From positions 113,313 through 177,312 of IMG/VR virus record IMGVR_UViG_3300042197_004429: a DNA stretch of 64,000 nt; one strand, 5' to 3'. Below, one piece after another: positions 12,232-63,951 of the stretch. The position numbers and the translations under genes were made by a program. A model generated the notes under the pieces. The model had not been told where the DNA came from. It made no database searches and was given only the letters and a program-made list of their open reading frames with translations. Origin of the DNA: a virus. Positions within the stretch are counted from its first letter, which is position 1, and every line of letters starts with the position of its first letter.

Positions 12232-12558
12232 AAAAAAATTATTAATTATAGATAAATAATTCTAACAAAAAAGGTATTTTTGAAAAACAAATCAAATATT
12301 ATTGATTTAAGCGACTGCAATAAGATAGTTGTTTCCAAAATTATTCTATCTGTTGTGGGTTATTTTGAGTCTCAAGGAAAGAAAGTAAGTCTCAAAAAGA
12401 AACCACAAAAAACCCATAAAATCCTAACTGTACAAAAAACCACTTGACATAGTGCGTATAATGTATTGGTGGCCCAAAAATACACAGCCCCATAGCCCGC
12501 CCATAATTTTTTTGATACCAACTAGAGCGGCGTACCCCACCAACCGGAGAAACCGAAG

Positions 12559-14064
12559 ATGTCTGAGTGGTTTAGTGCCCATAAGGATGGATTGCGTCAA
12601 ATTGCGGAACGTTTAGTTGAACGCCGTGGATTCGGCATTGTAGGAGGAGAACTCTATCAGAACGTGATGGACACTAACGCAACCTCTTGCGTTATCACTC
12701 TGAATAAACTCGCTGGTCGTCCACTGGCTGAGTTGAGCGTTGAAGATAATGATCCTAATGGCTTTCCTGATTTGGCCCACGCCTGGACTGTTTTTGCTCC
12801 TTCCTTGAAAAAGAGTGATCCTACTAAGGCTGGAAGATTTAATGTTGGCGAGAAAATGGTTCTTGCTTTTTGCAAAGAAGCCAAAATTCACACAACCAAA
12901 GGTCTTGTAGAGTTTAATCAAGAAGGTAGAAAAGAATATACTCGCAGGAAGAGAGAAGTCGGAACTGAATTTTGGGCTTTGATTGAGTGTAATCAAGAGC
13001 GTTATGATCAATTTATTGATTACATGAGAAAAATTATTGTTAGGCCAGGATTGACTTTGACGGTTAATGGAGAAATAATTCAATCTCGTGTCCCGCTCAC
13101 TAAATTTGTTGAAAAACTACCCACAGAAATCGCTGGCGAGGATGGCATTCTTAGAAAATCAATACGCCAGACAGAACTTCAAATTTATGAAGCATTGCCG
13201 GGAGAAGAGCCGTACTTGTATGAAATGGGAATTCCGGTGGTGGAAACCGGAGACAAGTGGCACTATAATGTTTTGCAAAAAGTTCCTTTGAATGTTGATA
13301 GGGATAACGTCACTCCTTCTTACCTAAGAAACTTGCGTGTTGTTGTTTTCAACAATATGCATGAAAAAATTGAAGAAAATGACGTTACTTCTTCTTGGGT
13401 CAACGAAGCAGCAGATGATAAAAATTGCCTACCGGATGCTGTAGAAACTTTTCGTGTAAAGAGATACGGCGAGAAATCAGTTGCTTTTGATCCAACCAAC
13501 CAAGAAGCAAATGCCGAGGCTGTGGCTCATGGCTATACTTTAATACCACCTAGGGGATTAAGTTCCGGTCAAAGAAAAAATCTTTACTCAGCAGGAACCC
13601 TGGTTTCTAGTAGTGATGCTTTTCCCTTGGCTGGCAAGGGTGCGTATAGCGATGATCCAAATGCAACGCCTGTTGAGGTCATCGAAAAAGATAAATGGAC
13701 AGACGGAATGTGTTTGATCCACGAATATACAACAGAAGTTGCAAAAAGATTGCTGGGCAAGAAAGTAGATGTGAGATTCGTTAATTGTTCACGATACGCT
13801 TACAAGCCCTGGAGTGCGTGTTTTGCCAGAGGGCATTTGTTGTCAACTAGTTATTTTGATTACAACATTCACGCTCTAGGCAAAAAATGGTTTTCAACAG
13901 GAGTTAATGAAAGCGTTGATGATTTAATTTTACACGAACTTGCTCATGAGTTTGAGTCTAATCACTTATCGGAAGATTATTATAAGGCTTGTACAAAACT
14001 AGGTGCCAGACTAAAGGCAGAGGTTTTGAGAGATTTTGATTGGTTTTTGAAGTTTGTTAAATAA
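12559..14064 (+). CDS. GHKL (HATPase_c) ATPase fused to a C-terminal HExxH metallopeptidase-like domain
   Basis: GHKL boxes ELYQNVMD, VEDNDPNGF and KKSDPTKAGRFNVGEK. C-terminal LILHELAHEFESNH. Confidence 0.75.
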   Translation: MSEWFSAHKDGLRQIAERLVERRGFGIVGGELYQNVMDTNATSCVITLNKLAGRPLAELSVEDNDPNGFPDLAHAWTVFAPSLKKSDPTKAGRFNVGEKMVLAFCKEAKIHTTKGLVEFNQEGRKEYTRRKREVGTEFWALIECNQERYDQFIDYMRKIIVRPGLTLTVNGEIIQSRVPLTKFVEKLPTEIAGEDGILRKSIRQTELQIYEALPGEEPYLYEMGIPVVETGDKWHYNVLQKVPLNVDRDNVTPSYLRNLRVVVFNNMHEKIEENDVTSSWVNEAADDKNCLPDAVETFRVKRYGEKSVAFDPTNQEANAEAVAHGYTLIPPRGLSSGQRKNLYSAGTLVSSSDAFPLAGKGAYSDDPNATPVEVIEKDKWTDGMCLIHEYTTEVAKRLLGKKVDVRFVNCSRYAYKPWSACFARGHLLSTSYFDYNIHALGKKWFSTGVNESVDDLILHELAHEFESNHLSEDYYKACTKLGARLKAEVLRDFDWFLKFVK

Positions 14065-14951: not shown

Positions 14952-14985
14952 TTTGATACCAACTAAAGAGACACAAGGAGTAAAA

Positions 14986-16263: not shown

Positions 16264-16890
16264 ATGGAATCTTTAAAAAGCGAAGTTAAGACGTATTACG
16301 AAGGTGGAAGAGGCAAAAAACAATGTTCAAAGTGCTACAAATATGTTGCCGCAGTAACAAAAATTTGTGCTTGCGGATCTGAATTTGCAGCAAAGACAAA
16401 TTTTAAGGCCGAAATTTCCACCTTCTCAACCGGGGGAAGAGGCAAAAAAGAGTGTCCCGATTGTAGAAAGTTTGTTGGTGCAATAGTTCCAAAATGTGTT
16501 TGTGGTTTTGATTTTAAGCAAGCAAAAATTTCTAAAAAGGATGCGTTATCTCAATCAATTAGATCAGCACTACAAGCAGCAAACTTACAATCTCAAGAAA
16601 AACTTACATTTAGCCCTGAGTTTGCTTCTTTAATGGTCGGCTGTAAATCAACAATAATTGCACCAGCAGGAAGTTGTCCTCATAAACTCGATAGCACAGA
16701 ACCTGAGAAGATAGACGAATGGATTAGCAAGGTGCGATTGTCGTTTAAAAACAAGCAACAATTTCTAACAATCTCCGGAGTAATTTATTTCATTCATCAA
16801 TTTTTTAATATGTTTAGTCCAGAATACAAGACTGTCAGAGAGTACGTGGAAAAAAGTTTGGGTTCAGAAAGAAGTTTAGGTCTTAGTTAA
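16264..16890 (+). CDS. Double zinc-ribbon protein
   Basis: Two internal repeats GGRGKK-CxxC-x10-CxCG. Confidence 0.7.
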   Translation: MESLKSEVKTYYEGGRGKKQCSKCYKYVAAVTKICACGSEFAAKTNFKAEISTFSTGGRGKKECPDCRKFVGAIVPKCVCGFDFKQAKISKKDALSQSIRSALQAANLQSQEKLTFSPEFASLMVGCKSTIIAPAGSCPHKLDSTEPEKIDEWISKVRLSFKNKQQFLTISGVIYFIHQFFNMFSPEYKTVREYVEKSLGSERSLGLS

Positions 16891-16917
16891 TACCAACTAG
16901 TGCGTCGGAGAATAAAA

Positions 16918-20225: not shown

Positions 20226-20274
20226 TATAATTGATACTATCTAGCAGGACGCACCCCCATCTAAAAGGAAGTTT

Positions 20275-21968: not shown

Positions 21969-23126
21969 ATGGAATACTATCAATGGCAAACGATGATTGA
22001 TGAACATCGTCGGATTCATCGGCAAGATAGAAAAAGAGTTCGCAATCTAACGGATGCTCAAATTAAAAATATTGAGATGGAGAACATTCTATCTACTCCA
22101 TTCAACAAAGAGTCAAATCGCTGGCGGAGAATGATTCGCTTGATGGGGGAAAATGTTTGGATCAATGCTGGTAAGCCTTACTACAACATTCACCCACAAA
22201 TGGTTAGATCTCTTTGCAACACTAACTTGGATAAGATACCAGCAAACTTAATAGAAGTTCCAGCGGGCTTAGAAGCGGTGGTTTTCAGATTTGCTGAGAA
22301 CGTCCCTGATCGTTTTATAACAAACAATGGATTTCATGTGGTTTCAGCAGAAGAGGTTCGTCATTCGCCAATTTATTGTAGATCAGTTTTGTTTGGTAAA
22401 ATAAAGAATGATAGATCAAAACACGTTGCTGAAAACATAAAGAAAACTACTACAGAGTTTCTTCGATCAATTAATATGCCATCCCTAAATGATAATGTAA
22501 AAGCCATTATAGACTTGGCTTCCGATGGATATTATAAAGACGTTGATGATTTCATGATAATGTGTGTTGATGAAGGCTTTAGAGTTAAAGATCGTGGTGT
22601 TGATAGAAGTTTGTGTAACTTAATTTGCATAAATTGTAAACATGGTCAGAGTGTTTCAGAGGCAATACAATCTACTGTGGAGCAAGCCTCTGCTGGTGAA
22701 CAGGCTGTTATGGTCACTATGGGTGATCGTTTGTCGAACTTGATTCGTGTGATTGTTTCTGCTGGTTTTTTGGCGAACTGTCCTGAAGATGATTTGGTTG
22801 TTCCCGATATTTTGAGTGCTGATAAACAAAGTTTCAAAGATGCCTCGCAACGTGGAGATGCGGCGGCAATTCAAACTATTGTTGAGCGTGCAAAAAGACG
22901 AGGTAAAAATGGTTACAATATTGGAACATCAGAGATGTTCGTATCAGAGAATGAATCTGAACAGCACAAACAATACGACAGCAGCGGAAAACAATTAAGT
23001 TTTAGTCACTTACGTGGTGGTCATCCTCATGCTGTTCGTTATGGTGAAGGAAAAAACAAGGTAAAAATCAAATGGTTTAGACCAACTAGAGTCAGGCCAG
23101 ATTTGCCTTTTAAAACATCCGAATAG
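21969..23126 (+). CDS. Hypothetical protein
   Basis: 385-aa ORF with a C-terminal HLRGGHPH..RYGEG..KIKWFRP motif. Confidence 0.65.
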   Translation: MEYYQWQTMIDEHRRIHRQDRKRVRNLTDAQIKNIEMENILSTPFNKESNRWRRMIRLMGENVWINAGKPYYNIHPQMVRSLCNTNLDKIPANLIEVPAGLEAVVFRFAENVPDRFITNNGFHVVSAEEVRHSPIYCRSVLFGKIKNDRSKHVAENIKKTTTEFLRSINMPSLNDNVKAIIDLASDGYYKDVDDFMIMCVDEGFRVKDRGVDRSLCNLICINCKHGQSVSEAIQSTVEQASAGEQAVMVTMGDRLSNLIRVIVSAGFLANCPEDDLVVPDILSADKQSFKDASQRGDAAAIQTIVERAKRRGKNGYNIGTSEMFVSENESEQHKQYDSSGKQLSFSHLRGGHPHAVRYGEGKNKVKIKWFRPTRVRPDLPFKTSE

Positions 23127-23641: not shown

Positions 23642-23659
23642 GACTCGTGAGGGAAAGCC

Positions 23660-23865: not shown

Positions 23866-24879
23866 ATGAGAAAATTAGCATCAATACAAACTATTAAATT
23901 TGTTAGACCCATACCAAACGCAGATGCAATTGAGTGTGTCGGTGTTCTTGGTTGGGAATGCGTGTGTAAAAAAGGTGAATTTCAAAATGATGATAAATGT
24001 GTTTATTTTGAAATTGATAGTTTGTTGCCAGAGATGGAAGTATTTGAATTTTTAAGAAAAAGTTGCTATAGAAAAGATCTGAATAAATTCAGGCTAAAAA
24101 GTATTAAGTTGCGTCAGCAATTAAGCCAAGGTCTTGCTTTACCTTTGAGTTTATTTCCTGAGTTATACCATCTAGAAGTCGGCACAGACGTAACTGATTT
24201 GCTGAATGTTGAAAAGTACGAGCCACCAATCCCTGCTCAAATTCAAGGTGATGCCAAAAAGTTTGTTTGGCCTATTGCAAAAACAGATGAGGTTAGAGTT
24301 CAAACTGACGAGGGGCTTGCTTTAATTTCTAATCTTGTTGGCCATCCTTATTATGTTAGTCTTAAATTAGATGGAACAAGTTGTTCTTTTGTTATTGATC
24401 CATCCGACAATGAATTTCATGTTTGTGGAAGAAACTATAGTTACAAGCACAAGCCAAATCATAGTTTTTGGATTATAAACGAACGATACCAACTAGAAGA
24501 ACGCTTGAGATCAATCGGTGGCAACTTGGCACTTCAAGGAGAGTGTGTGGGTCCAGGAATTCAACAAAATAAACTTGGATTACCCATTATTGATTATTAC
24601 GTTTTTAACGTGGTTGACACATCAAATCGAAAAAGATTATCGCTTGAAGATTCTTTAAATGTTACAAAAGAACTTAAATTAAATTTTGTTCCAATACTGG
24701 AAAAGGGCGATTCATTTAATTACAACATGGAACAGTTGCTTGAAAAAGCAAAAGGAAAGTATCGTGAACATTTTGAGAATGCGAAGCAGCATCAAGAACG
24801 TGAAGGAATAGTGATTCGAAGTTTGTGTGGATCAGTTAGTTTCAAAGCCATAAATAACGAATTTCTCCTACAGGAATAA
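23866..24879 (+). CDS. RNA ligase, Rnl2/DRB0094-like
   Basis: MRKLASIQ..IPNADAIE N-terminus, KLDGTS, QGECVGPGIQ.N, REGIV and FKAINNEFLL. Confidence 0.88.
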   Translation: MRKLASIQTIKFVRPIPNADAIECVGVLGWECVCKKGEFQNDDKCVYFEIDSLLPEMEVFEFLRKSCYRKDLNKFRLKSIKLRQQLSQGLALPLSLFPELYHLEVGTDVTDLLNVEKYEPPIPAQIQGDAKKFVWPIAKTDEVRVQTDEGLALISNLVGHPYYVSLKLDGTSCSFVIDPSDNEFHVCGRNYSYKHKPNHSFWIINERYQLEERLRSIGGNLALQGECVGPGIQQNKLGLPIIDYYVFNVVDTSNRKRLSLEDSLNVTKELKLNFVPILEKGDSFNYNMEQLLEKAKGKYREHFENAKQHQEREGIVIRSLCGSVSFKAINNEFLLQE

Positions 24880-28493: not shown

Positions 28494-28516
28494 CTTTTAA
28501 TACTAACTAGACTTTC

Positions 28517-28568: not shown

Positions 28569-29003
28569 ATGATTTTTGCTACGATAACGATGCAGTATGA
28601 TGTTGTCAAAAAAGACATACAAGATTTGCTCACAGGTTTGTTTGAAAACAATTATTCGCCTTGGTTAAGGGAAATCAAATCCAAACAGTTTGCGAATGAA
28701 TTAAATCTCACGGATTTTAGGCAAGGTGGGAAAATGCAAGATGTGAAAGATTATTACCATTGGTCGCAACTAATACCTGTGACGGAAGGTTGTTCGTTAA
28801 CTCTTTGTGTGGATGATCCAAATAGCGACAAAGGGGAAGAAAAAGATGTTGTTTTAGATTGTGAATCCATCCGTCGTGGCTTACAAGTTATGGCTACGAA
28901 ATACCGAGAACATTGGGAAGATTTCATTTACAAAAATGACGATGCAACCACCGCTGATGTTTTTGGGCAATGTTGTGTTTATGGAGAAGTTTTTTACTCT
29001 TAG
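28569..29003 (+). CDS. Hypothetical phage protein
   Basis: C-terminal DATTADVFGQCCVYGEVFY. AAGGA precedes ATG 28569. Confidence 0.6.
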   Translation: MIFATITMQYDVVKKDIQDLLTGLFENNYSPWLREIKSKQFANELNLTDFRQGGKMQDVKDYYHWSQLIPVTEGCSLTLCVDDPNSDKGEEKDVVLDCESIRRGLQVMATKYREHWEDFIYKNDDATTADVFGQCCVYGEVFYS

Positions 29004-29036
29004 AATACCAACTAAGGATGGTGGAAAGGAACCAAA

Positions 29037-31145: not shown

Positions 31146-31208
31146 GCGATACCAACTAGTAACGAGAAACCGAGAACAGATTGATTTTCACAAAAAGGAT
31201 AAACAAAA

Positions 31209-35262: not shown

Positions 35263-35776
35263 TCTTGGACCAATTTTAAGTTTTGTTGAGGTTGCTCAAA
35301 ATCGAGGTTGGAAATACGTTCCATGTATGATTGTTCAAAACGGTCGCAGAGTTTGTAATCCAGAAGCGATTCGTTTGAACGACGGAATATATGCTACCAT
35401 TGTTAGTCCAGATGGTGTCACTAAGGTTGCCTTGGATCACACTTTGATATATTATCACAATGGTAATGTTTGGCGAGGAGACCCAACCGATGTTAGGCAA
35501 AATTTAATTATATTTGCTGCTTTGGTTGTTGAACAAAGTCACCGCAAAAGCGGTCATGCGACTCACGCAATGAAAAAATTGTTAGAAATTGCCAATGATC
35601 TCAATATGGTTGTTATGTTAGAAGCGTCCCCGATTCAAAAATTTTCTTCAAAAACTAAAAACATCACACAAAAAAAGTTGATACGTTGGTACAAAAAATT
35701 AGGATTCGTAGCAGCGTATCCCAATCAAGGCGAACAAATACTTTGCCACCCCGCTCCTCCAGTGGATACTAACTAG
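35192..35776 (+). CDS. GNAT-family acetyltransferase-like protein (true start probably later)
   Basis: LVVEQSHRKSGHATHAMKKL (motif A), LEASP and LIRWYKKLGF. Confidence 0.6.
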   Translation: MCLTKYPKISGLSIKKTMRSKKSSLGPILSFVEVAQNRGWKYVPCMIVQNGRRVCNPEAIRLNDGIYATIVSPDGVTKVALDHTLIYYHNGNVWRGDPTDVRQNLIIFAALVVEQSHRKSGHATHAMKKLLEIANDLNMVVMLEASPIQKFSSKTKNITQKKLIRWYKKLGFVAAYPNQGEQILCHPAPPVDTN

Positions 35777-38613: not shown

Positions 38614-39228
38614 ATGCAGGATTACTGGACTGATCTTGAATCAAGAGCGGCAATAAATTTGATTTGTGCTTTGGACGCAGAGATAGTAGCCAAACAACAA
38701 ACTATTTTGCTGTGCTGCGATAAAGATTTTCCAGAAATTTTTAGGCAAAAAATTTGGGATTCAATAAACAATCTGTCTCTTGAAACAGGGTCAGGTCGCA
38801 TACAAGATAATGTCGATTTTTACAAACAATCAAAAAGAAGTTTGTTGCTTGGTTCTCTTAAAAACATTTGGCAAGAAATTGAAAGCAAAAACTATCCAAC
38901 ACGCTTTGGTATGCTCCTAGGTGATCCTGCAAGCAATCTTGCTGCTAGAGATTCGTATAACAAAGAAATGGAAGAATTTGACATTAAACAAAGTGGCGAA
39001 ACCAAATAAACAATACCAACTAGTAGCAGACAGTTTATGATTTTCTTGTTTTTATTTTTCTTGGTGATTGTTGCATTTGCAAATCAGATTGCTCAATACT
39101 ATCGGTACAATCTATTTCTTTATAAAAAAGAAATAGAGCAACGAGAATACGCAGAGTTTCAACTACAGATGCAGCGTGAACGTGCTATTCAACAATTGAA
39201 CAGAATTAGAAAATACTACGAAAATTGA
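38614..39228 (+). other. Two hypothetical genes: 38614-39009 and 39037-39228
   Basis: Abutting ORFs separated by motif copy 39012. Confidence 0.55.
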
Positions 39229-42576: not shown

Positions 42577-42643
42577 GTTATAGGTGTTGGCGATAAACAA
42601 CAATCGTGTTATACTAACTAGGTGGCACAAAGGACTGCCCACC

Positions 42644-49100: not shown

Positions 49101-51950
49101 AAAAGATTCTGAATATGTTGTGGTGCATTGTTGATGAGCCTAAAAACTATTTGAAGGTAAAAGTTTCAAATGTTTTTGATAACGCTTATCGAATCAATGT
49201 TTGGTCAGAATATCATGATAAGTTACACAACATTACTCGTGTGAAGATTTCTCATAGTTATTTCTGTAAGTTAATCAATCAAGAACTGGTGGTGATTTCA
49301 TGAAGTGGCTTTTACCAATCGTTTTACTGTTTGTTGGTTGCGATAACAGCAACTCAGATGTGGATAAGATTATCAAGGCTAAACAAATTGTTTTGGGAAA
49401 AATTAATTTTCCTGACACAGCAGATTTCCACGAAATGAAAACTCATGTTCAAGGAAACAATGTTTCGTTGACTGTTACTGCAAAAAATGCTTTTGGTGTG
49501 CCTGCTACTCAAACATTCACGGTGCGTGTGGATTGAAATGGGATACTTAACTACATTCACGGTTTATAATGATGGCGTTGATCTTGTAAAGGAACACGCT
49601 CAAGATTTTGCCGATAAAATTTATCGTGCAGCCATTGAGCATCAGACCTGTGATCTTGCTATTGGCAATTTTTGCAATCTTGTAAGAGTGCAAAAGTGCC
49701 GCCATGCAAGCGATAATACTATCTACGTTCACATGGGAAATGGTGTGTTTGAGATGAACCCACACAGTGAAGAAACAAAAAATATGCTGGATCGCAACCC
49801 AGAGTTTTTTGAAAAGGTTGTTAAGTTTCTTGATCGTGATGTAAAAGAACTTAAAACTATGCTCAAACAAAGGAAGTCAAAATGACAACTGAAGCCAAGA
49901 TGGATTGGTTGGCTTTTTTTCTTTGGCTTATTGGTTTAAGTATCATTACTTATACCGTTGGATATTTATCTTCGTTTGCATTGCTTTTGTTGTTTGTTTC
50001 GGACAACATTCATGCTTGCCGTCGATTAGAAAAAATGGGATTCACCGACTGGTGGAAGAATCAATGAGTTTCCTTAGAGGATTCATGAGTCTTTTTAGTT
50101 GGATAGATTGTTTTCACGATCTATCTCCTAAAGAGCGTGTTGATGAAATTTTAGATGATTTTTATTATGATCATCCTCACATTGAAAGGGATGATTGGAA
50201 AGCAATTCAAAAAGATAATGAAGCAATAGCAAGAGATTTTTACGCAGGAGGATCACAAAATGAAAAATAAAACTAAAACTAAGACCAAGACTAAGGTTGC
50301 CACAAAATACTATTACATTTTTGTGTGGCATGATGTTGACCCAGAGATCAATGGTCCGTATAAAACTCCACAAAAGCGTTTCGAAGCCGTTTGCAAAAGC
50401 GTTGAAGAAAATGGCTTGGATGGTAATTCGCACTTTTGGCTTGACAACACGAATGGTAGACTAAGTATTGGAACCTATTCTGGCAGTGATTTTGATACTG
50501 ATGACTGTGATTATTAATAAGGAACAAAAATGACAACTACTGAAAAAGACTTTTCGTTTGCAGTTTCTGGCGCATTTTCGGTTGATAACAATTTGAAGCC
50601 GATTTTTGGAGTGCTTAACACAATTGTTGGTTTCACGCTTCCAGATGGTCGTGAGGCTCGATTGATTGTTGGAGTTGAGGTAGAAAATAAAATCACTGGT
50701 GATTATGATTACGTTACTAGTGAAAAGCAAATGAGCGATTTAGGTTTTGGTTGCCTTGAGTATGACAAGGCTGATTTTGAACCGATGGATGATACCAACT
50801 AGAACGTCAGAATTTCAAACAAAAATTAGGAACAAAAATGAAAACCCACAAGTGCATTGAACTTTTCATTGATGATGCGAGACAAATTCTTGTGAATTGG
50901 ATTGCCAATATGATGATTGACGATCCGGTTCATTTAAAGGAAATGATCTTGACAGAAGGCTTTAACAACTGGTACGGTCCTGTTGAAAAGTTTACAGACG
51001 AGGAACTTGCTGATCGAATTGGTGAATTGGATCTTGCTCGACACGCTGCCGAAGAACACGATGCTGATATGGTTTTTATTCGATTGAACGCTATCACAAA
51101 CTTTGTTGTTTACGAGCGTGAAGAAACAGTAGACCCGTTGAACAATTTGGTCGTTGATACAATCGTTGACATAAAACTTCAAAATCACTAAAACTATCTT
51201 TCCAAGGAGCAAAAAATGAAGCCTTTTGATATTCCCGACAAGTGCATCATCAAGTATCTTCGTGACAAAAAGCGTAATCCTCGTGGTGTGATTGTTGCTT
51301 TGAGGCGACCAGACGGAACTGTGAGTGTTCATTATTCATACTGTAACACCAAGACTGATCGCTTTAATAAGACAACTGCTTTAACAATTGCTTTCGGTCG
51401 TGCGATTGAAGATAAGCCGTATTGTGGTTTTAGTGAACTACCTCGTCAGGTTCGACATGAAATTTCCGAATTTAACGAACGTGCAACGAAATATTTTAAG
51501 GTAGACAAGCAAGAACTTTGTAGTTGGATGTGAATTGAAAAATGAATATTCAAAACTTGCTAAATCAAATTGAGAGTGAGTGGCGAACAGCGAGTGTTAA
51601 CCACCAACGTGCTGTTGATCGCAATAGCGAACTGTTCAAAGTGTTGGCTACTGTGAAGAACGATTTGGAAAAAACACTTAAAAAGCCAGAAACTCTCAAA
51701 GACACTGTGTATAGTTGCATTGATTTGTTGCGGGCTAATACTCCGTATTACAGCACAAATGAAGGTTGTAATAAAATTGATCCTCCACTCACAGATGAGC
51801 AAAAAACACTATGAACAATTATGTCGTTTGCTGGCTTGGTGCGATTGCAAAGCATTGGGAAGTTGTAAGTGGTTATGATGCGATGCAAGAACGTGTGAGT
51901 GATTTGGTTGAAAAAGGTGTAAAAGAAGATGATATTGTTGTTGGAGAAAT
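43143..51950 (+). other. Dense array of ~30 small co-oriented hypothetical genes (about 50-145 aa)
   Basis: Near-continuous abutting ORFs, e.g. 43143, 43553, 43802, 44032, 44322, 44510, 45150, 45633, 45821, 45996, 46389, 46924, 47534, 47950, 48367, 48650, 49043, 49300, 49882, 50260, 50530, 50838, 51216 and 51542. No recognisable enzyme motifs. The layout is typical of a phage early/accessory region. Confidence 0.65.
48367..48624 (+). CDS. Hypothetical protein, duplicated at 60706..60963
   Basis: Both copies start MIKPASEVRNEMMQT and end GGVWQLSEDICW. Confidence 0.8.
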   Translation: MIKPASEVRNEMMQTDTYKTAVEEQVSWVVKSIESAKSLGRTHTCFSVRPSYQQEIKRMFLNQGYSFKPTGYCGGVWQLSEDICW

Positions 51951-53240: not shown

Positions 53241-53623
53241 GATTTGATACCAACTAGAACCCTGAACTCCAAGAAATAAAAAAAACATGAAACTCAACAA
53301 TAAAGATGAAATTATCGTCGTTGCAAGCGATCATGAAACTTTTGAAAAGTATGGTGATGAAATAGACTTCATTGTGCGATTCGAGGCAGGGCTACTTTTT
53401 CATGGTGAGCAATAACATCTCTACAAAGTTGAATAAATTCATCGGAGGTATCAATAAATTATGTTTCTTTTACTGGGAATAGCGTGTGGATGTTTTTCTT
53501 TCTGGGCTTTTACTTACTTAATATGCAAAAAGTAATTTTTAGTTAGTGCTTATAAATTACGAGTTCGTTAGAAAACTTTAATACCAACTAGAATGAAGCA
53601 TTATCTGCAAATTTGAAAAACAC

Positions 53624-53651: not shown

Positions 53652-53891
53652 AGATAGAAAGGATTCATTCCCTGTGTCAGAAACGACAGAAGACAATACA
53701 ATCAATCTTATTTACTCAATCATGCAAGAACTTCACGAACGTAATCGTGATGTTGAAATGACTCTCTATGGAAATGGATCTGGTAGGTTTAAAGTTGGAT
53801 TGCGTGAAAAAAACTTCAGCAACTTGAAGAATGGCTTGACTAAAATTCAAGAGATGCTAAATCTTGAAAATAAATAATTGATACCGACTAG

Positions 53892-54130
53892 AATTTAGCC
53901 ACTAGGAACTGACAATCCCTTCGGACAGCCCCTAAATGTTTGGGGAATAATGTGGCGACAGCAACAGAAAGCCGTGACGTTGCTTTTTGCGTGAGTCTAG
54001 CAGGCTAGATTGGGGTTAACTATTCGACAGGCCGATGTGTGCTTGGGTAAAACCGGCATTGGTGTTTGAGGTTTTGTGCTTCAAACTAGAATACCAACTA
54101 CTAGGGTGCGATTCCTTGGTCACGCTCTTT
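53892..54130 (+). ncRNA. Putative structured ncRNA with tRNA-like closing stem and T-arm
   Basis: GC-richer ORF-free interval with several hairpins. GCGTGA (53989) pairs with TCACGC (54120), next to CTAGGG-TGCGATT-CCTTGG. Confidence 0.4.
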
Positions 54131-54332: not shown

Positions 54333-54381
54333 TAATACCAACTAAGTCATCAGTCCCAATCACTTTTATAGAAAGATTCTT

Positions 54382-56496
54382 ATGAAGATTGCAACCAACA
54401 ACTCGACTGTTCAGACCAATTCGACCAGCATTGAGAGCCACAATTTTTCTATCGGTGACGTTAGCACGATCATTGATATTCTTCGCAATCGTTTGTATAG
54501 CAATCCTATTCAAACGCTTACTCAAGAATATTTGAGCAATGCCCGTGACAGTCATCGTGAATCGAAGCAGACTCGACCGATCACGGTTACGCTTCCTACT
54601 CGACTTGATAGTGTTCTCAAGATTCGTGATTATGGTGTTGGTCTTGATAAGCAGCGTGTTCGTGATGTGTTTGTTAATTACGGCATCAGCACGAAGCGTA
54701 GCGACAATACGCAAACTGGTGGTTTCGGCTTGGGTGCAAAAAGTGCTTGGGCTTACACTGACAGTTTTGTTGTTGTGAGTTACTACAGCGGTGTTCGATA
54801 CACCTATGTTGCCCACACTGGAAAGAACAAGAATGGTACGTTTGAACTGATTGACGAGTCTGCTACTGACGAGCCGAATGGTGTCGAAGTGCAGATTCCT
54901 GTCAAGGAAACGGACATTCAGCGTTTTGTTACGGCTGTTTATCGCACCACTTTCTTTTGGGAAGTTAAGCCCGAGTTGAAGGGCATTACTGGTGTTGAGA
55001 TTCCCAAGGAATATAGCAACAACAACTTTGACTTCAAGAGCAACAACACGATGCTGGTCAAGGAAAGTCAGTTTGTTAACTCTATCTTCAACACGGCTTA
55101 TCAAACCAATAAGATTTTCGCTTTGATCGACGGTATTCCGTATGATTTGAACAAAGTTTCTCAGGGTATTCCTGCTGCACGTGCTATTTCTCAGGTTGTG
55201 AACAACAACTACATCACCTTTATCTCTGTTAATAATGGTGATATTAGTGTTGCTGCAAGTCGAGAAGAAATCAGTGCCGATCAGGATAATGTTGAAACTA
55301 TCACCAAACTTTATAAGAGTACGGTGAATAACATCACTGAGATTGTTCTTGAAGAGTTCAATCGTTCTTTTGGTTCGCTCAAGAATTATGTTGAAGTTTA
55401 CGAGCGAATGAGTGGAGTGGTCAATTATTACTACTTGACGCTCGACCAGTCTCAGAAGGATTTGATTTTCCGATATACCCAGGATGGTTTTGTTTTTAAC
55501 TTCGATCTCGCCAACAACTATTCGTGCAGCAAGATCGAGAACGTGTGTGTGCATCGCTTGAAGAAGAAGCGTGTTCGTGATTATGTTACTCACGAAATGG
55601 GAACCAATGTTGGAATTGGCGACAAGTCGGTTGTGGTCATCAGGGACGAGGAGTTTAGCGAGGCTGTTAAGAATCGCAAACTGCGAAGTGTTCTTGATCA
55701 AGGCAAGAGTCATGTTTATGAAATCATCTGCAAGAGTCATGATGACATCCCTGCTTTGCAGAAGATTTGCGAAGCCAAGTTGTTGAGTGAGTTGTACTAC
55801 GAACGAGGCTCATACAATCCCAAGACTGGTCGTGTGAAGAGCAACGACGAAGTTCAAATTCGTCGCTTGGAAAAGAGTTATGGCTGTATTGCAAGTCGTG
55901 GTATTGAAACCATCAAGTTGCTTGATATTGAAGCGGAAGATGAAACTTATGTTGTCGTTCCTTTTTCTAAGGAAGCACGATTCGATAATGAGAATGAGAA
56001 GTTTATCGAAATGGTTGACTATATTGGAACTCGTAACGGCTACACTGTTATCAAGTGTGGCAAGAGAGATTACAACAAGTTGATCGAGCTTGATAATGTG
56101 GAAGAGTTTGATGATGTTGCCGAGAATATCCAGGAGTTCTTCCCGATTGCAGAAGAGAACATTCGCAAGAGTGTTTTTGCAAGAAGCAACACTGTGTTGC
56201 ACAGTTTGCGTCGGCATCGTGATAAGATTGAGTGTGATCATTTTCAAAAGTTGTTTGATTCTTACCCCGATAAGGTTGCCGCTTATAATCTTCAAGCCTC
56301 TGAGTCGATACTAACTAAGCACTACCCGAGGTACGCAGAGATTGTCAAGGAATTCAAGGCGGTTGAATCTCTTGAGCAGAAGATTTTCAAACTGTATCCT
56401 CTGCTGAGTATGCACAACACTTGGCGAAACGAAATGCTGGTTGAGTACATTTACTATATCAACAACAAGTCGCAGTTTATTAAGTCTAAGGAGTAA
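54382..56496 (+). CDS. rIIA: rIIA-like protein (N-terminal Hsp90-like GHKL ATPase)
   Basis: LYSNPIQTLTQEYLSNARDSH, IRDYGVGL and STKRSDNTQTGGFGLGAKSAWAYTDSF. Paired with a downstream rIIB-like gene. Confidence 0.75.
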   Translation: MKIATNNSTVQTNSTSIESHNFSIGDVSTIIDILRNRLYSNPIQTLTQEYLSNARDSHRESKQTRPITVTLPTRLDSVLKIRDYGVGLDKQRVRDVFVNYGISTKRSDNTQTGGFGLGAKSAWAYTDSFVVVSYYSGVRYTYVAHTGKNKNGTFELIDESATDEPNGVEVQIPVKETDIQRFVTAVYRTTFFWEVKPELKGITGVEIPKEYSNNNFDFKSNNTMLVKESQFVNSIFNTAYQTNKIFALIDGIPYDLNKVSQGIPAARAISQVVNNNYITFISVNNGDISVAASREEISADQDNVETITKLYKSTVNNITEIVLEEFNRSFGSLKNYVEVYERMSGVVNYYYLTLDQSQKDLIFRYTQDGFVFNFDLANNYSCSKIENVCVHRLKKKRVRDYVTHEMGTNVGIGDKSVVVIRDEEFSEAVKNRKLRSVLDQGKSHVYEIICKSHDDIPALQKICEAKLLSELYYERGSYNPKTGRVKSNDEVQIRRLEKSYGCIASRGIETIKLLDIEAEDETYVVVPFSKEARFDNENEKFIEMVDYIGTRNGYTVIKCGKRDYNKLIELDNVEEFDDVAENIQEFFPIAEENIRKSVFARSNTVLHSLRRHRDKIECDHFQKLFDSYPDKVAAYNLQASESILTKHYPRYAEIVKEFKAVESLEQKIFKLYPLLSMHNTWRNEMLVEYIYYINNKSQFIKSKE

Positions 56497-56499: not shown

Positions 56500-57819
56500 A
56501 TGAAATACTATTTGTTGAACAACAGTCTGGTTGTTTTTACAAAAGATAAGGTTTACTCTGTTAGTAACGATGATTATAGATTTGATCAGATAAAGAAGGC
56601 TATCGACATTGGTGATTTTGATTGCGCTGCTTCTTTGGTTGATCCTAACTTTAGTCTCAACAAGGAGGGATTTGTTGTTGACAATGGTGTTGTGTTTTTT
56701 AAGGATGATCCTATCCCTACTGTGCTTGGCAACCGATTCATCGAATTGAATCAAGACAGTTTTGAGTTTCGTAGCATCTTCAACTTCTGGTTCAATATGA
56801 AGACCAGAGTTGATGACAATGTTGCTGCTGAAATTATTGGAGAACTTGTACACAAAGATGCCTACGCAGTTACCGAAGATGGTTTTTATTTGTTGTATCG
56901 CAACAAAGAGGTTGATCAGACTGGTAGTGTTTTGAACAAGAAAAAGCAGCAGGAAGTGTTTCATTTTTATAATTACGCTAACTGTCCTGCAAACTACTAC
57001 TCATTGTTTCAACAAAAGAAGAGCCTCACAACTGTTCTTGAAGAAGTGTTTGGCTTCTGTTCGAAAAAGTTGCGAAACATTGCTGTTCAACAAATGTTTC
57101 GTGATGTTGATAACTTTTTTAACTACAAGTTTTTGTTTTATGGCGAGGCTTTTAAGGACGTTCTTGCCACAGACAATATCTTTTTTGCTATCGAGAACAA
57201 ACTGCTTGATACTAACATTGGAGACATCAATGAGTATCAAGATTTGAGAATCTTTTTGAAAGACTATGCTGTTGAAAAGTCTGGAGTTTACAGTCAGAAG
57301 AAGATCGTTAACTTCTTAGAGAGTGCGACTGACAAGAGCAAACTCATGGAAATTGGTCCGTACTACACTGCTGTTAAACACCAATTTGACATCGATATTC
57401 AGAGCATGAATTTTGTTAACAACTGCGACACTATTCACACCTATCTGGAAAGGGAATATAAGCGAATTCAGAATCCCTTATTCATGCTGAATAACGATCC
57501 TGAGATTGAGGCTTTGGATGAAGTTGAGTTTGATAATTTCCGCATCATGGTTCCTAAAACCAATCATGATCTGATTGATTGGGGAAACCGAATGAAGCAT
57601 TGTGTTGGCAACGGTTCTTATGCTAATGGTGTCAAGAAGAAAGAGATTCAAATTCTTTCAGTGAATGACAAGGTTACTAACGAAATGATGTATACGATTG
57701 ACATTCGTAGAAAGAATCTGCAACAGTTGTTGGGCAGAAGCAATCGTCAAGCACCTGAGATTGATCGCAAGTCTATTGTTCGATTTTTGCGTGAGAAGAA
57801 TTTAATTTATAAGGAGTAA
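56500..57819 (+). CDS. rIIB: rIIB-like protein with C-terminal PcfJ-like domain
   Basis: rIIB-like N-terminus (FVVDNGVVFF, AVTEDGFYLLY). C-terminal VPKT..DLIDWGNRMKHCVG..Y is PcfJ-like. Confidence 0.55.
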   Translation: MKYYLLNNSLVVFTKDKVYSVSNDDYRFDQIKKAIDIGDFDCAASLVDPNFSLNKEGFVVDNGVVFFKDDPIPTVLGNRFIELNQDSFEFRSIFNFWFNMKTRVDDNVAAEIIGELVHKDAYAVTEDGFYLLYRNKEVDQTGSVLNKKKQQEVFHFYNYANCPANYYSLFQQKKSLTTVLEEVFGFCSKKLRNIAVQQMFRDVDNFFNYKFLFYGEAFKDVLATDNIFFAIENKLLDTNIGDINEYQDLRIFLKDYAVEKSGVYSQKKIVNFLESATDKSKLMEIGPYYTAVKHQFDIDIQSMNFVNNCDTIHTYLEREYKRIQNPLFMLNNDPEIEALDEVEFDNFRIMVPKTNHDLIDWGNRMKHCVGNGSYANGVKKKEIQILSVNDKVTNEMMYTIDIRRKNLQQLLGRSNRQAPEIDRKSIVRFLREKNLIYKE

Positions 57820-57827
57820 TACCGACT

Positions 57828-57941
57828 ATGCCAGTTACAACCCCGGTTAGAACACCAGCACCCGTAAAGACTCCTAAAGAGAATAAGCCAACTCCGTTCA
57901 ATCCTCCGAAACCAGAACAACTACCAGCACCAAAGAATTAA
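57828..57941 (+). CDS. Proline-rich 37-aa peptide
   Basis: MPVTTPVRTPAPVKTPKENKPTPFNPPKPEQLPAPKN, with AAGGAG upstream. Confidence 0.5.
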   Translation: MPVTTPVRTPAPVKTPKENKPTPFNPPKPEQLPAPKN

Positions 57942-58962: not shown

Positions 58963-61900
58963 TCATATAGTTTCTGTTGGGTGTCGAATGTGCAATAATG
59001 TTTATGACATTAAGTGTAATGAAAGTGATTTTAACAAATGGAAAAATCATGAAGGATACATCCAAGAGTTACTGCATTACCTGAGCAAACAAGAACGTGA
59101 ATTGTTAATTAGTGGCACTTGCGGCACCTGTTTTGATGAACTTTTTTCACCAGAAGAAGATGAAGATGATGACGACGACAATGGTTGAACCAGCGGTTAA
59201 GATTTGGCACGAAGTTCGATTTCACCTGAGCAAAGGCCAACATTACAAATATTGGCAAGTCAAGACTAGAATCAAAGGCGTAAAGCAATATGGAGTTCGT
59301 TATTATAACCCTGCTGATCATGATTTGATTCTTGGTGATTGTGAACTTGTAAACGATCCCAAAACAGCCCAGCAGGTTTTTGAAACCCAAACAAGGGACG
59401 TTTGTGGATGGGTACGATGCCGAGAATTTTCAATTGCGAAGGCAGGCGAACACGATCTGGATAACCTGAAAATGGTTGTGTACGATCCGAAGATTCGAAC
59501 CTATTGGCATTACAAAAACGAAATCGACAATATTGATGGTGCCAAATTTGAAGAATTATTTACCGTAGGAAAGAGAGTATATTGTGGACGCTCTTAACGA
59601 TCTTATTGATGGATTTAAAATGGACCAAGGCTGGAACAATGATACGGTGTTGGATTTGTTAAAACGATTTTTGTGGGATCGTCAAGACAAGTGGTTAAAC
59701 CGCTCAATGCTCTCAGATATTGACAGCACTTTTAAGGAAGTGGCATCGTTAGAGAATCAGGACGAATGATACCAACTAGAGCATCGTTCCCCCAACCACA
59801 AGGAAAACCAAATGACCACTAAAAATCTCAATAAAACGAACAAGACTTTTGTACTAGAAGTTTTGAAGTACGGTCTTCGTGCAAATCAATATGAACTCAT
59901 TAGCACCAAAGATGTTGTTATAAAATACAACGGCGGTGAGAACTGGAACAGTGCTTATGTTGATGATTGGTACGATCTTTATGTGCCTGTAAAACTTCAT
60001 AAGCATAAGGTTGTAAACAAGGGCGACATGATTAAGGGCTCCCCGCCGTGTACGATCACCTTACATCATTTTAACAACTTGTTATCCGATTTGAAGAAAG
60101 CTCTGGATACTCATTTTAAGGTTTATGCTACACAACTATCTATCGGCAACAATATGCTGTATTTAGAATTTTGTGTGGACCCTCGTTGATACCAACTAGA
60201 ACATCGTTCCCCCAACCAAAGGAAAACTGAAATGAGCAATCGTCAATGCTTTGTGACATCTAGCGAAGGAATCGAATTAGCGATTCCTCAATCAATGGTT
60301 GATGATTTGGTTATGAAGGTGGTGGATGAAGCCTATGATAAAAACATGGTTCTGAGTAACGGCACCTACGCTAAACGATTTCAAATATGGACCGTTGATG
60401 GAAAAATCACTATTGGTAGTGAACTTATTGATACGATGCTTCTTTCTCCCGAAAAAGTTGATTATTTATTGCCCATTGTTGCTTTGTGGGAAGAAAACGG
60501 GAATGATCACGCAATTATTATACTCCACTCGGAGATTTTAGAAAATCCTAAATTTATGGACGATCCACAAATTGTTAGGTTGGTAAAACAAGCACCAAAT
60601 GTGACTAAAGATAATTTACTTAAAGTACTTCAACAAAAACTCAAAGGATGACCACTCACTCGATACCAACTAGCACCCTGTCCCCAAACCTTAAAGGAAA
60701 AAGAAATGATTAAGCCTGCAAGTGAAGTGCGAAATGAAATGATGCAAACTGAGACTTATAGGACTAATGTTCAAGAAGCAGTGGGGTATGTCGTGCAATC
60801 TATTGAAAGTGCAAAATCTATGGGACGCACACACACCTGCTTTAGTGTCAGACCTGCTTATCAGCAAGAGATAAAGCGAATGTTCTTGAATCAAGGATAC
60901 TCGTTCAAGCCAACTGGATATTCTGGCGGCGTTTGGCAACTCAGTGAAGATATTTGTTGGTGATACCAACTAGAAATGTCGGAGGAAAATTCAAACTCAT
61001 GAATGCCCAACAAAAAATTAATCTGCAAGTGAAAACTCAAAAGTTTGTTAGCGCACTTTATGTGTTTAGCAACTTTCACTACATCAGACAAGAGATTGGA
61101 AATTGTTTTCCAGATGAAAACTTTGAATCCAATTACGCAAGAAGCGAAGTAATTAAAAAACAGTTCATGGTAACTCCAGAACATTTGATGTATTTGCTTA
61201 ATCAATTTGTTGCTGAAGGCCGTTTTGTGCCTGATACAACTCCTTGGAACGACGCTCAATTTGTTATTGAAAAGTTAAAAAGCATACAAGATTTAGACCC
61301 AAACATTCTTGTTGATTTGGAAAATTAATTGAGGATAAAACAAAATGAACATGGCTACAAAAACTAATTCAAAGTTCCCGACTAAGCAAATCCAGTGTGT
61401 GGCTTTGCATGATTTATTTGACGAAAATACACTTGAGGCCGTTACGCTCAAGTTGATGGAAGAATATCCCGATTCGATGCAGGAAGTAAGGGACGAACGC
61501 ATCTGGTCTGCAAAGGGTTTTCTTCGGTTCATCAATCACTGGATTAACTCTGATTATTACCATCTGCAAGACAGTTCTTTTGTTTATATTGAAACACTTC
61601 GGACATCAGGATGGCGTATTAGTGACGAACGGCTATATAGTCGTGAATTGTTAGAGCGAATGGATGCCAATGAACTTCAGCAAGAAATTGAAGATTATAA
61701 GGCTATCTGCAAGACTAAAGACTTTTTGTTGAATCATCCCGATTGTTTTGTTTATAATGACTTGTTTTCTAGTAGTAAACCCAACCCTGAGTTGCTTTAC
61801 AATATTGATGTTGTTTCGATTGATGACATTTGCAAATTTGAATGGAATGTTGCTTTTGAGGAACATTTAGACGGCCACAATTTGCTCTTGGGAGCAGATC

Positions 61901-63951
61901 GAGTCATTCATTATTTGGAAGATTGGATCAAATGGAATGGCGAAGGTGATCAAGACGAATACGTGATCAACTTCAGAAAAACAATCAAAAAGTTGAAGAA
62001 AAACCCCAAAGTTTTTGTGATTATCAAAGATGATTGGCAAAAACCAAACGATCCGTATTGGGATTGGACTTGATACCAACTAGAACCCTGTCCCCAAACC
62101 TTAGTGGAAAGAAATAACAGGAGAATAATAATGAAAATTGAACACATTTTTGATTTATATGAAAACAACAACTTAAGAAAACTTGTTGTTGATATACTAA
62201 CAAATAAAAAGCAGATTTCGGAATTGAAGAGCCTTATTAGTCCAAACTGCGACTATGAATTTTTGGACGGCATTGAAAACAAAGCAATTGACGCTTCTTA
62301 TCTGAAAAAGGTAAATAAGTCTAATTTAATTAGATTTATTAACGACGCCGCTGATAAAACGGGTCAAGATATGCCACATAAAAATATCCAAAGATTCCTT
62401 AGTAACGAAAACTATGTGTATATGTATATGTTTAGATGGAAAGGCGCATTATCTCCAAAAGAATACAAAAAACACAATAAGATTAAACTCAAGTTTGCAG
62501 ATATAATTGAAATTTATGATGAAAATAATTCTTTTAGTGCTTTTAGTAGTGCATCGGAGGTTTTCATGCTTGATGGCGGAGCCTATAGATTACACGAAGC
62601 CATTAATCTAGCCAAAGAATTGGGAGTTAAATTAACGCCTGCTAATCTACAGATTTTATTGAGTGATATCTCAATCGAAGATTATTTTGATAAATTGAAG
62701 AAAAATAAAGCTTATAAAAGAAAACTTTTGAAAGACCTTCTTGTTGTGTTTCCTAATTGGAATTTGAATGGAATTGAAAAGTTGGCTGTGTGATCTGATT
62801 AGTGATACCAACTAAAGCATCGTTCCCTTAATTAAAAGAAAGAAAGTTAAAATGACCACCAAAACCGATGATCGTCAACGCTCTCAAGAAAGACCTTGTT
62901 CTTCTTAATAAGCAAAAGAAGGCCACCGAAGATTATATTAAGGTCGGTTGCGGTCAGTTTCTCAATGTTGGAAATGACCAATGGTGCGGAAATTATAAAG
63001 AGGTTCTTAGACTTTACAAAGATATGATTAAATTTGCCAATAAGGCAATCGAAAAGTTAAATAACACCAACGATGAATACCTTTTCGACAAGATTTATGA
63101 TGTTTTTGAAAAAATTGCAGACGCTAGTGAGGCGAATGTCTTCCTTGAGGGCGAAAAATGGGCCTACGAGGAAAATCACCAGTTTCATCACAGTTTGTTT
63201 CCCAATTTCGTCAAGTTGGTCTAATTGTTTAATAGTCCCCTCAAACCTAAAAGGAAAAAAGAAATGAGTACTAAAATTGATATTAGTTCGCTTGATGATG
63301 CCACCAAAGCAAAGATTGAGCAATATCATAAAAGATGCGAAGAATTAGATAGTGTGGTTGAAAAGCCAATTACCCTTAATTATAAGGTTGGTGTTGTTTG
63401 GGATAGTCTTGAACCATCTGCTGTTGATGTGGGGTCAGAAAGTGATCTTTATGACCAAATTAATAAAGCACAAAAAGAATATCTTAAAGAAATTAAAAAA
63501 GAAGCAAAAGAAATTGTCAAATTCTCAGACGAAGTTGCTGATAAACTTGGTGTAGACAGAATGGAGTTTTGGGATCAATACTTTTTGGCTTGACCGCTTT
63601 TTAAGGAACGGAAATAATGAATGATCTTAAATTCGCCGTCGATTTCATGTCTTCTATTAAAGAAGCCGCAATCAAAGATTTAAAAAGTATCGAAGAATTT
63701 GAAGATAATTGGTCGCTTTGTTCGAATTGGTTGTATGGTCTGTTGATCTTCCAGATTTGAGTAGTTTAATAAGGGGACTCAAAAGCTCCTTGGAAGAACT
63801 AAAGAATGATCCAATCAACACACTTTTACAAGATTCCCCAAATGCAGACGAGGGTACTTTTAATTTCTATTTTGTAGTTGGAAACTGTCTTGGTGAAGTT
63901 TTTGAGCAAATTATTCAAAAGCAACTTATTAATAGCATGAGGTACAAATGA
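58955..63951 (+). other. Motif-punctuated array of hypothetical genes: 58955-59188 (Zn ribbon), 59181-59597, 59584-59769, 59812-60189, 60232-60651, 60706-60963, 60999-61328, 61345-62073, 62131-62793, 62868-63224, 63264-63593, ~63709-63951
   Basis: Co-oriented ORFs. Six junctions carry the RATACCAACTA motif. Confidence 0.7.

What the first reader, a model, noticed from the sequence alone, without database searches (positions are those of the whole stretch)
12514..62815. A 12-bp motif (RATACCAACTAG) punctuates the whole + strand gene array over 30 times: candidate phage-specific promoter or gene-shuffling site
Seen in sequence: 17 exact 12-mers, 24 copies of the exact core ATACCAACTA and about 9 near-variants. 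Every copy I found is on the + strand and none precedes 12.5 kb. A hand estimate at ~35% GC expects only ~0.1-0.2 core copies in 64 kb. Most copies sit at gene junctions, about 10-50 nt before the next ATG (33, 19, 17, 21, 21, 29, 15, 35, 36, 32, 32 and 32 nt in examples). I see no conserved -35 block upstream and no hairpin shared among copies. Established: large phages use their own short promoters, and in T4-type phages repeated promoter elements (PeSLs) mediate modular shuffling. Inference: this is either a single-block promoter read by a phage factor, or a short recombination/insertion site that builds a cassette-like array, or both. I do not recognise the consensus.
Basis: partly seen in the sequence, partly recalled or inferred. 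Interest (0 to 1): 0.9.

Follow-up and report, generated by a model that had tools for sequence, protein, structure and literature searches.

The report
Private promoter of a jumbo phage
A 13-base signal repeated in front of the accessory genes of an uncultured jumbo phage is most likely a promoter read by the phage's own sigma factor, and because it sits at gene borders it also serves as a point where related phages have swapped genes.

Summary
Observation confirmed: 17 exact 12-mers, 24 cores and 36 matrix hits, all on the + strand in the last 52 kb of a 177-kb T4-like jumbo-phage fragment; none elsewhere on that strand. A 459-kb relative holds 98 copies and none on the reverse strand. The motif behaves as a single-block promoter (about -19 to -7, no -35). 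A pyrimidine-purine start dinucleotide sits at one fixed distance behind it in this phage and in distant lineages, and the motif turns round with gene orientation. The array opens with a phage sigma70-family gene (14094-14951). Its orthologues in five other lineages have their own version of the motif directly upstream, in the same register. In about 90%-identical strains some gene units were swapped exactly at the motif, but many rearrangements fall elsewhere, and no dedicated recombinase was found. In relatives the motif's 3' end starts a terminator-like hairpin that only read-through RNA could form fully. It works like phage-sigma promoters plus PeSL cassettes, with a new sequence and layout. 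The scan reported similar private promoters in other huge phages before (e1-5706334, e1-5379438).

The parts
12444..12462 (+). Host-type -10 box (TATAAT, 12457-12462) with a TTGACA only 7 nt upstream; possible host-RNAP start that primes the GHKL-sigma-AAA unit
   Evidence: Seen in sequence, same layout in G001 and L035; not a canonical 17-nt-spacer promoter and not called by the scan. Role inferred.
12513..12525 (+). First motif copy (consensus), head of the array; predicted +1 at 12532
   Evidence: kept in G001, L033 and L035
12559..14064 (+). 501-aa protein, probable GHKL (HATPase_c_3-like) ATPase; first gene of the array
   Evidence: Atlas feature hits 0.99, family on 16-33% of cluster members; no Pfam hit; conserved in relatives
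13541..13553 (+). Variant copy inside the GHKL gene, 534 nt before the sigma start; possible autoregulatory promoter
   Evidence: same variant in G001 and L033
14094..14951 (+). 285-aa phage sigma70-family factor; best candidate reader of the motif
   Evidence: Pfam Sigma70_r2 3e-8, PHROG 351, model pLDDT 84 matches sigmaA chains; 97 clusters at E<1e-30
14954..14966 (+). Motif copy between sigma and AAA ATPase genes
   Evidence: motif at the same junction in G001, L035, L036, L090, L091, G004, LR756511
14986..16188 (+). 400-aa AAA ATPase, conserved neighbour of the sigma gene
16888..16900 (+). Motif copy; supplies the stop of the upstream gene
20232..20244 (+). Variant copy, intergenic
23077..23089 (+). 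Variant copy in the 3' end of an ORF
24163..24175 (+). Variant copy inside RNA ligase gene
24484..24496 (+). Exact copy inside RNA ligase gene
28498..28510 (+). Variant copy, intergenic
29003..29015 (+). Copy before SNF2 helicase gene
31147..31159 (+). Exact copy, intergenic; homology to G001 ends at its last base
35016..35028 (+). Exact copy; TAG ends the upstream gene
35764..35776 (+). Variant copy; TAG ends the upstream gene
36648..36660 (+). Core copy at a gene junction (overlapping ORF calls)
39011..39023 (+). Exact copy, intergenic
42609..42621 (+). Variant copy, intergenic
44101..44113 (+). Core copy inside an ORF
44898..44910 (+). Variant copy
46205..46217 (+). Exact copy; TAG ends the upstream gene; next ATG about at +1 (leaderless-like); absent at this junction in L073/L074
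47740..47752 (+). Variant copy inside an ORF call
48244..48256 (+). Exact copy
48367..48634 (+). 85-aa gene copy a plus the motif (48622-48634) that supplies its stop
   Evidence: 87% identical to copy b up to the last base of the motif, unrelated after it
50790..50802 (+). Exact copy; TAG ends the upstream gene
53245..53591 (+). Motif-to-motif unit (copies at 53245-53257 and 53579-53591) with a 42-aa ORF and a tRNA-Arg 3' remnant; absent from L073/L074, with the join inside the motif
53879..53891 (+). Variant copy
54089..54101 (+). Core copy
54333..54345 (+). Core copy before the rIIA-like gene
56306..56318 (+). Variant copy near the end of the rIIA-like gene
57817..57829 (+). Variant copy; supplies the upstream stop
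59767..60199 (+). Motif-to-motif unit (copies at 59767-59779 and 60187-60199) with a 125-aa gene; replaced by the 85-aa gene unit in L073/L074/L075
60661..60973 (+). Motif-to-motif unit (copies at 60661-60673 and 60961-60973) with 85-aa gene copy b
62071..62083 (+). Exact copy; supplies the upstream stop
62803..62815 (+). Last core copy before the contig end; the array very likely continues

Best explanation
The motif (consensus TRATACYRHCTAR) is a phage-specific promoter: one block from about -19 to -7, no -35 element, with transcription starting 7 nt after the final G. The phage has no RNA polymerase of its own, so host core polymerase is redirected by a phage sigma factor, most likely the one at 14094-14951, which heads the array and lies behind its own promoter (positive feedback after a first start from a host-type -10 box at 12457). 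The promoter drives a co-oriented arm of accessory genes and tRNAs (early/middle class; a T4-like late box is found elsewhere). Because the same 12-13 bp, often with a similar leader, recur at gene borders and often supply the upstream stop codon, recombination inside the motif swaps, deletes or duplicates whole promoter-to-promoter units without breaking genes. In relatives the promoter's own -10 to -1 bases form the left arm of a terminator-like hairpin, which stops read-through from the unit upstream but cannot fully form in RNA that starts at +1. Shown: counts, strand and region bias, register, conservation, swaps at the motif, the sigma fold.
For: (1) Pyrimidine-purine pair at one fixed position: window 14/24 (p=2e-4), G001 72/98 (p=2e-25; 44/63 after removing similar leaders), G004 73/113 (p=2e-20), background 0.23; 14/16 in four further lineages (p=2e-7); LR756511 second arm 26/33. 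(2) Three different sequences (this one, GACACCC in G004, AGCTGTAC in LR756511) line up in the same register, with the fixed block starting at about -18 and nothing conserved at -35. (3) 93 of 96 next gene starts lie at or after the predicted +1; two tRNA genes begin 9 and 15 nt after it. (4) Orientation follows the genes: in LR756511 the motif flips in a second, converging arm. (5) Kept before conserved, non-shuffled genes in phages whose sigma is only 39-46% identical. (6) A lineage-specific version stands directly before the sigma orthologue in L036, L090, L091, G004 and LR756511, a variant does so in L035, and the LR756511 case was a prediction made before looking. (7) No RNA polymerase beta subunit in G000 or G001; gp23 capsid in G001; of three sigma genes in G001, one has a canonical region 4 and one is gp55-sized, while the array-head one has an altered region 4 helix. 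(8) Base-precise switches of homology at the motif; breaks enriched at motif junctions in L073 (7/11 vs 10/44, p=0.014). (9) 61 of 98 G001 copies hold the upstream stop codon. (10) 22 of 98 G001 copies start a stem of 10 bp or more at the motif's 3' end against 1.5% of random positions, with 4.6 T in the next 8 nt against 1.9; the stem loses most of its energy when folded from +1; the same layout occurs in L091.
Against: No RNA, footprint or in vitro data. In the window itself only 18 of 36 sites have the pair at the main position (9 have it one base earlier). The motif lacks the usual T at -7. The sigma keeps a conserved region-4-like helix although no -35 is seen. Breaks are not enriched at the motif against G001 (7/19 vs 35/77, p=0.82); three indels between the closest pair L073/L074 all fall elsewhere; junction counts are small and not independent. 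The window's own copies have no hairpin.
Confidence: 0.8

Rival explanations
1. It is a promoter, but read by another factor: the 297-aa sigma of the core region, a sigma plus activator pair (for example with the neighbouring GHKL or AAA ATPase), a virion-delivered protein, or a host alternative sigma.
For: Three sigma genes in G001; the array-head sigma lies behind the motif and lacks a canonical host promoter, which leaves a start-up problem; GHKL and AAA genes travel with it.
Against: The 297-aa sigma has a canonical region 4 that should demand a -35 box; the motif changes between phage lineages and stands directly before the array-head sigma in five of them; G004's orthologue lacks the region 2.3 Trp and its motif is loose at -11 to -7.
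Confidence: 0.2
2. It is mainly a site-specific recombination site of an integron-like cassette array, with genes entering at one end; promoter activity is secondary or absent.
For: Base-precise swaps at the motif; stop codons supplied by the motif, as in integron cassettes; polarity in G001, where density, GC (0.36 to 0.53) and hairpins rise toward the distal end.
Against: No tyrosine integrase in G000 or G001; the only serine recombinase is an IS607-type TnpA beside TnpB and is absent from G001; the motif is not palindromic; it is conserved inside ORFs and before fixed core genes; the fixed-register start dinucleotide has no role in an att site; many rearrangements miss the motif.
Confidence: 0.07
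3. It is an RNA signal (processing, stabilising or protein-binding site on the mRNA) that cuts one long transcript into gene-sized pieces.
For: Strictly on the coding strand, between genes and before tRNAs; hairpins follow it in relatives.
Against: The fixed pyrimidine-purine pair 7 nt downstream and the shared -18 register across three unrelated sequences fit initiation; window copies have no structure; no nuclease candidate tracks the motif.
Confidence: 0.05
4. It is a polar DNA-handling word (Chi- or KOPS-like, or an injection/packaging signal) or a generic over-represented word.
For: Complete strand bias and a density gradient.
Against: Confined to one arm; concentrated at gene junctions; follows gene direction; more than 200-fold over a Markov expectation.
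Confidence: 0.02

Closest known systems
Single-block promoters of phage-encoded sigma factors: T4 gp55 late promoter TATAAATA at -13 to -6 (PMC1524935); phiEco32 and 7-11 sigma promoters (PMC4331800)
   Same: No -35 box, one short highly conserved block, host core polymerase redirected by a phage sigma70-family protein, T4-like phage without its own polymerase (group 2 jumbo phages of PMC7824862).
   Different: Different sequence; longer block reaching about -19; serves an accessory-gene arm, not structural genes (a T4-like late box is separately enriched elsewhere); about 100 copies instead of a handful; the sigma is a 285-aa member of an undescribed family with about 97 clusters.
PeSL / PmSL promoter-terminator cassettes of T4-type phages (PMC2839356, PMC4122927)
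   Same: Repeated promoter elements between small genes in a hyperplastic region; G-run/C-run stem-loops; gene gains, losses and exchanges at the element; no dedicated recombinase, T4-type RecA/UvsX present in G001.
   Different: PeSLs use host sigma70 -35/-10 (or Mot box) promoters, span about 100 bp and put the stem-loop upstream of the promoter. Here the shared part is 12-13 bp, is read without a -35, and the hairpin (where present) starts inside the -10 region and straddles +1. Circles were not shown here.
SPO1-type sigma cascades (gp28, gp33/34) (own knowledge; background in PMC13401047 abstract)
   Same: A phage sigma made early switches polymerase to a private promoter class.
   Different: SPO1 promoters are bipartite -35/-10; here one block, and the sigma gene appears to be autoregulated.
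Integron cassette arrays (attC)
   Same: One gene per unit, stop codon often inside the site, apparent polarity.
   Different: No integrase, no attC-like imperfect hairpin with inverse core, each unit has its own promoter.

Membership tests
Phage-sigma-dependent promoter (gp55/phiEco32 type) | Short conserved block upstream of genes, co-directional with them, no -35 box | tested here: met
Phage-sigma-dependent promoter (gp55/phiEco32 type) | Transcription starts at a fixed short distance downstream | tested here: inconclusive
Phage-sigma-dependent promoter (gp55/phiEco32 type) | Phage encodes a sigma70-family factor and no RNA polymerase | tested here: met
   (G001 91% complete, G000 74%)
Phage-sigma-dependent promoter (gp55/phiEco32 type) | That sigma directs initiation at the motif | not testable with these tools
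   Indirect only:
T4 gp55 late promoter | TATAAATA consensus before structural genes | tested here: not met
   Different sequence, absent from the structural region of G001
PeSL/PmSL cassette | Host sigma70 -35/-10 or Mot-box promoter | tested here: not met
   No -35 or Mot box
PeSL/PmSL cassette | Terminator stem-loop just upstream of the promoter | tested here: not met
   None shared in the window; in G001 and L091 the hairpin overlaps the -10/+1 region instead; upstream stem-loops do occur in the LR756511 second arm
PeSL/PmSL cassette | Clustered in a variable region of small genes in a T4-like genome | tested here: met
PeSL/PmSL cassette | Indels and exchanges between relatives break at the element | tested here: inconclusive
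   Met for several events and against L073/L074, not enriched against G001, not met for three L073/L074 indels
PeSL/PmSL cassette | Element-to-element mini-circles | not testable with these tools
   No reads; the loop contig L056 is joined through a gene paralogue, not at the motif
Integron cassette array | Linked tyrosine integrase and attC sites | tested here: not met

The most novel reading that the evidence does not exclude
A whole clade of huge T4-like phages runs an arm of 100 or more accessory genes from a fast-diverging, self-activating sigma family that reads a -19 to -7 block by a non-standard route (possibly the conserved basic helix between regions 1.2 and 2.1). The promoter doubles as gene stop, as the left arm of a read-through-only terminator and as the crossover point of a polar gene-capture array that takes up foreign GC-rich genes at its distal end by a dedicated, unrecognised mechanism.
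Probability: 0.15. Interest if true: 0.8.

Novelty: new variant of a known kind. Interest (0 to 1): 0.55.

Why it matters
It gives a concrete, testable transcription programme for a clade of uncultured huge phages whose regulation is undescribed in the papers I could search: a promoter sequence, a predicted start base and a candidate sigma. Matched sigma-motif pairs from several lineages (four sequence variants found here, about 100 sigma clusters) are a natural series for learning how sigma factors read DNA without a -35 box, and a possible source of orthogonal expression parts. The overlap of promoter, stop codon, terminator arm and crossover point shows how a phage can keep many short genes independently expressed and exchangeable with a 13-base signal.

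Tried and rejected
Literature search for the motif string gave only unrelated primer matches; searches for similar motifs in mega/jumbo phages found no description. tblastn of the sigma against cultured phages: no match; none in bacterial genomes, so the host is unknown. L056, an 11.65-kb contig that looks circular, was considered as an excised circle and rejected as evidence: its joint runs through a diverged second copy of the 90-aa gene (differences at 52844-52968), not through the motif, and may be an assembly loop. Its first five bases look like a 60663/62073 hybrid, too little to use. Tyrosine integrase absent; the resolvase hit is IS607 TnpA. A canonical host promoter before the first copy was not found. 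G005 shares only the GHKL gene and has a different, two-strand motif, so it was not used. L060/L061 share rIIA and neighbours but not the motif. Self-comparison of the G001 array found repeated promoter-hairpin elements but almost no duplicated genes. The clade name of LR756511.1 could not be read from the supplement of PMC7162821. The two-copy pattern scan of IMG/VR returned only G001 and two unrelated records. No complex prediction was run, as it cannot include DNA.
Full report
Observation. The 12-mer RATACCAACTAG occurs 17 times in the window, all on +, against a shuffle mean of 0.02. The 10-base core occurs 24 times on + and never on -. The window is the last 64 kb of a 177,312-base virus record; the other 113 kb hold no exact core. 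A matrix trained only on a relative finds 36 sites on + between 12.5 and 62.8 kb, none on + elsewhere and one on - in the whole record.

What the genome is. The sigma gene at 14094 led to a 458.8-kb IMG/VR record (G001) of about 85% nucleotide identity. G001 has a gp23-type capsid gene, no RNA polymerase beta subunit, a RecA/UvsX and three sigma70-like genes: 178 aa, 297 aa with a canonical region 4, and the 285-aa one that opens the array. Its capsid protein is 83% identical to that of the 595-kb phage LR756511.1 of PMC7162821 and about 31% to cultured T4-like phages. This fits the jumbo phages that redirect host polymerase with their own sigma factors (PMC7824862). G001 carries 98 exact cores, all on +, between 265 and 359 kb, rising to about one per gene at the distal end, where GC climbs from 0.36 to 0.53 and then drops. 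The window therefore shows the first half of a roughly 95-kb arm. Outside the arm, T4-late-like TAAATA words are enriched before genes.

Why a promoter. Behind the motif there is one further signal: a pyrimidine then a purine, 6 and 7 bases after the final G. It is present in 14/24 window copies, 72/98 G001 copies and 73/113 copies of the related G004 motif, background 0.23, and survives removal of similar leaders and of hairpin copies. A pyrimidine at -1 and purine at +1 is the usual bacterial start rule (own knowledge). Taking that purine as +1 puts the motif at -19 to -7. Next genes start at or after this point in 93 of 96 cases, and two tRNA genes begin 9 and 15 nt after it, so the signal is not translational. 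The motif is kept at the same junctions before the fixed GHKL, sigma and AAA genes in phages whose sigma is 39-46% identical, and as close variants in L090 and L091, with the pair at the same place in 14 of 16 sites in four lineages. G004 (sigma 27% identical) has GACACCC 118 times on one strand and never on the other, nearly all in the same arm. As a blind test I looked downstream of the sigma orthologue of LR756511.1 and found AGCTGTAC directly before that gene and along the arm, then reversed in a second, converging arm with one copy per gene and the same dinucleotide (26/33; in the first arm it is split over two adjacent positions, 50/57). Aligned on +1, the three sequences begin their fixed block at about -18 and show nothing at -35.

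Which factor. The 285-aa protein has a Sigma70 region 2, folds with mean pLDDT 84 and matches sigmaA chains, and belongs to a family of 97 clusters at E<1e-30 with no cultured or cellular member found. It heads the array in every relative examined, and its gene has the lineage's own motif directly upstream in L036, L090, L091, G004 and LR756511 (a variant in L035); in the window the copies at 12513 and 13541 would serve. Its region 4 helix departs from the residues that read a -35 box, and in G004 both that helix and the region 2.3 Trp are lost while the -11 to -7 part of the motif is loose. A TATAAT about 50 nt before the first copy, conserved in G001 and L035, could give the first transcripts, though it is not a canonical promoter. 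This pairing is inference, about 0.7; an earlier first-stage note names the same candidate (e1-5859206), which is not independent evidence.

Shuffling. The 85-aa gene is present twice in the window; homology runs to the last base of the following motif and stops. In strains about 90% identical (L073, L074, L075) the same gene end plus motif is followed by yet another leader, and in G001 by a fourth. L073 joins the sequence upstream of copy 53247 to the sequence downstream of copy 53581, with the switch in the motif, and carries the 85-aa unit in place of the 125-aa unit between motifs. Adjacency breaks are enriched at motif junctions against L073 (7/11 vs 10/44, p=0.014; L074 p=0.03, not independent) but not against G001 (7/19 vs 35/77, p=0.82), and three indels between L073 and L074 miss the motif. 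In G001, 61 of 98 copies contain the upstream stop codon; the T at -19 is still preferred where it is not a stop (37/51), so it is part of the consensus. There is no tyrosine integrase, and the one serine recombinase is an IS607 TnpA absent from G001. The simplest reading is short-homology recombination at repeated promoters, as proposed for PeSLs (PMC2839356, PMC4122927), as one route among several.

Hairpins. Window copies have none, but 22 of 98 G001 copies start a stem of 10-19 bp at the motif's last four bases, against 1.5% of random positions, followed by T-rich tails; L091 shows the same. About ten bases of the left arm lie upstream of +1, so read-through RNA can form the full stem (about -20 to -36 kcal/mol) while RNA started at +1 forms a much weaker one in most cases. 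I infer a terminator that insulates units; untested. The LR756511 second arm instead has stem-loops upstream of the motif, as in PeSLs.

Comparison and verdict. It works like the single-block promoters of phage sigma factors (T4 gp55, PMC1524935; phiEco32 and 7-11, PMC4331800) and like PeSL cassettes, but it fails membership of both T4 late promoters and PeSLs on sequence and layout. I found no description of this motif or sigma family in the searchable literature. The scan has noted comparable private promoters in other huge phages (e1-5706334, e1-5379438, e1-5708676), which I did not test. I rate it a new variant of a known kind: real, well supported by comparative evidence, without transcript data. 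Interest 0.55.

Noticed in passing
window 23552-23865: An attC-type integron gene cassette on the - strand is inserted here; G001 has the empty site, with the join at a TAAC just before the RNA ligase start codon, as expected for integration at a secondary site by a host integrase. The phage itself has no tyrosine integrase.
   Followed up: partly
window 43733-43793 and 53180-53240: A 61-bp direct repeat (3' end of the 78-aa gene) brackets a 9.4-kb block that lies elsewhere in G001 and L073/L074; the block moved into a position 7 bp upstream of motif 53247.
   Followed up: partly
window 53368-53405: A 38-bp copy of the 3' half of tRNA-Arg (52101-52138), like an attachment-site remnant; in L073 an HNH gene sits beside this tRNA.
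   Followed up: partly
window 12444-12462; L035 about 8235-8255: TTGACA/TTGACG and TATAAT separated by only 7 nt, conserved in three lineages at the head of the array; unexplained spacing.
   Followed up: partly
G001 265-359 kb; LR756511.1 about 10-20 kb; G004 reversed 95-105 kb: GC and GC3 rise toward the motif-dense end of the array (G001 GC3 0.33 to 0.67) and drop abruptly past it, which suggests recent gene intake or a distinct mutation regime at that end.
   Followed up: partly
L056 (JGI 3300047481, 11.65 kb): Contig that loops from window 64000 plus 359 new bases back into 52840 through a diverged second copy of the 90-aa gene: assembly loop, tandem duplication or circle.
   Followed up: partly
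L041 (G005 about 351.6-352.9 kb): CRISPR-like array of about 18 repeats of about 36 bp in a 372-kb phage; that phage also has a CGGTGTATG motif about 10 nt before start codons on both strands, like a leaderless promoter.
   Followed up: no
G000 71097-72916 (L092): Intact-looking IS607-type element: TnpA (MerR helix plus resolvase) and TnpB.
   Followed up: yes
window 19365-19574: Phage CsrA-like regulator, conserved in position in several relatives.
   Followed up: no
G001 about 279.1-279.8 kb (L003): Tandem repeat of about 71-73 bp units inside an insertion absent from the window; not examined.
   Followed up: no
window 727-6082: Two carbamoyltransferase genes on - alternating with SPASM/radical-SAM-like genes on +.
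   Followed up: no
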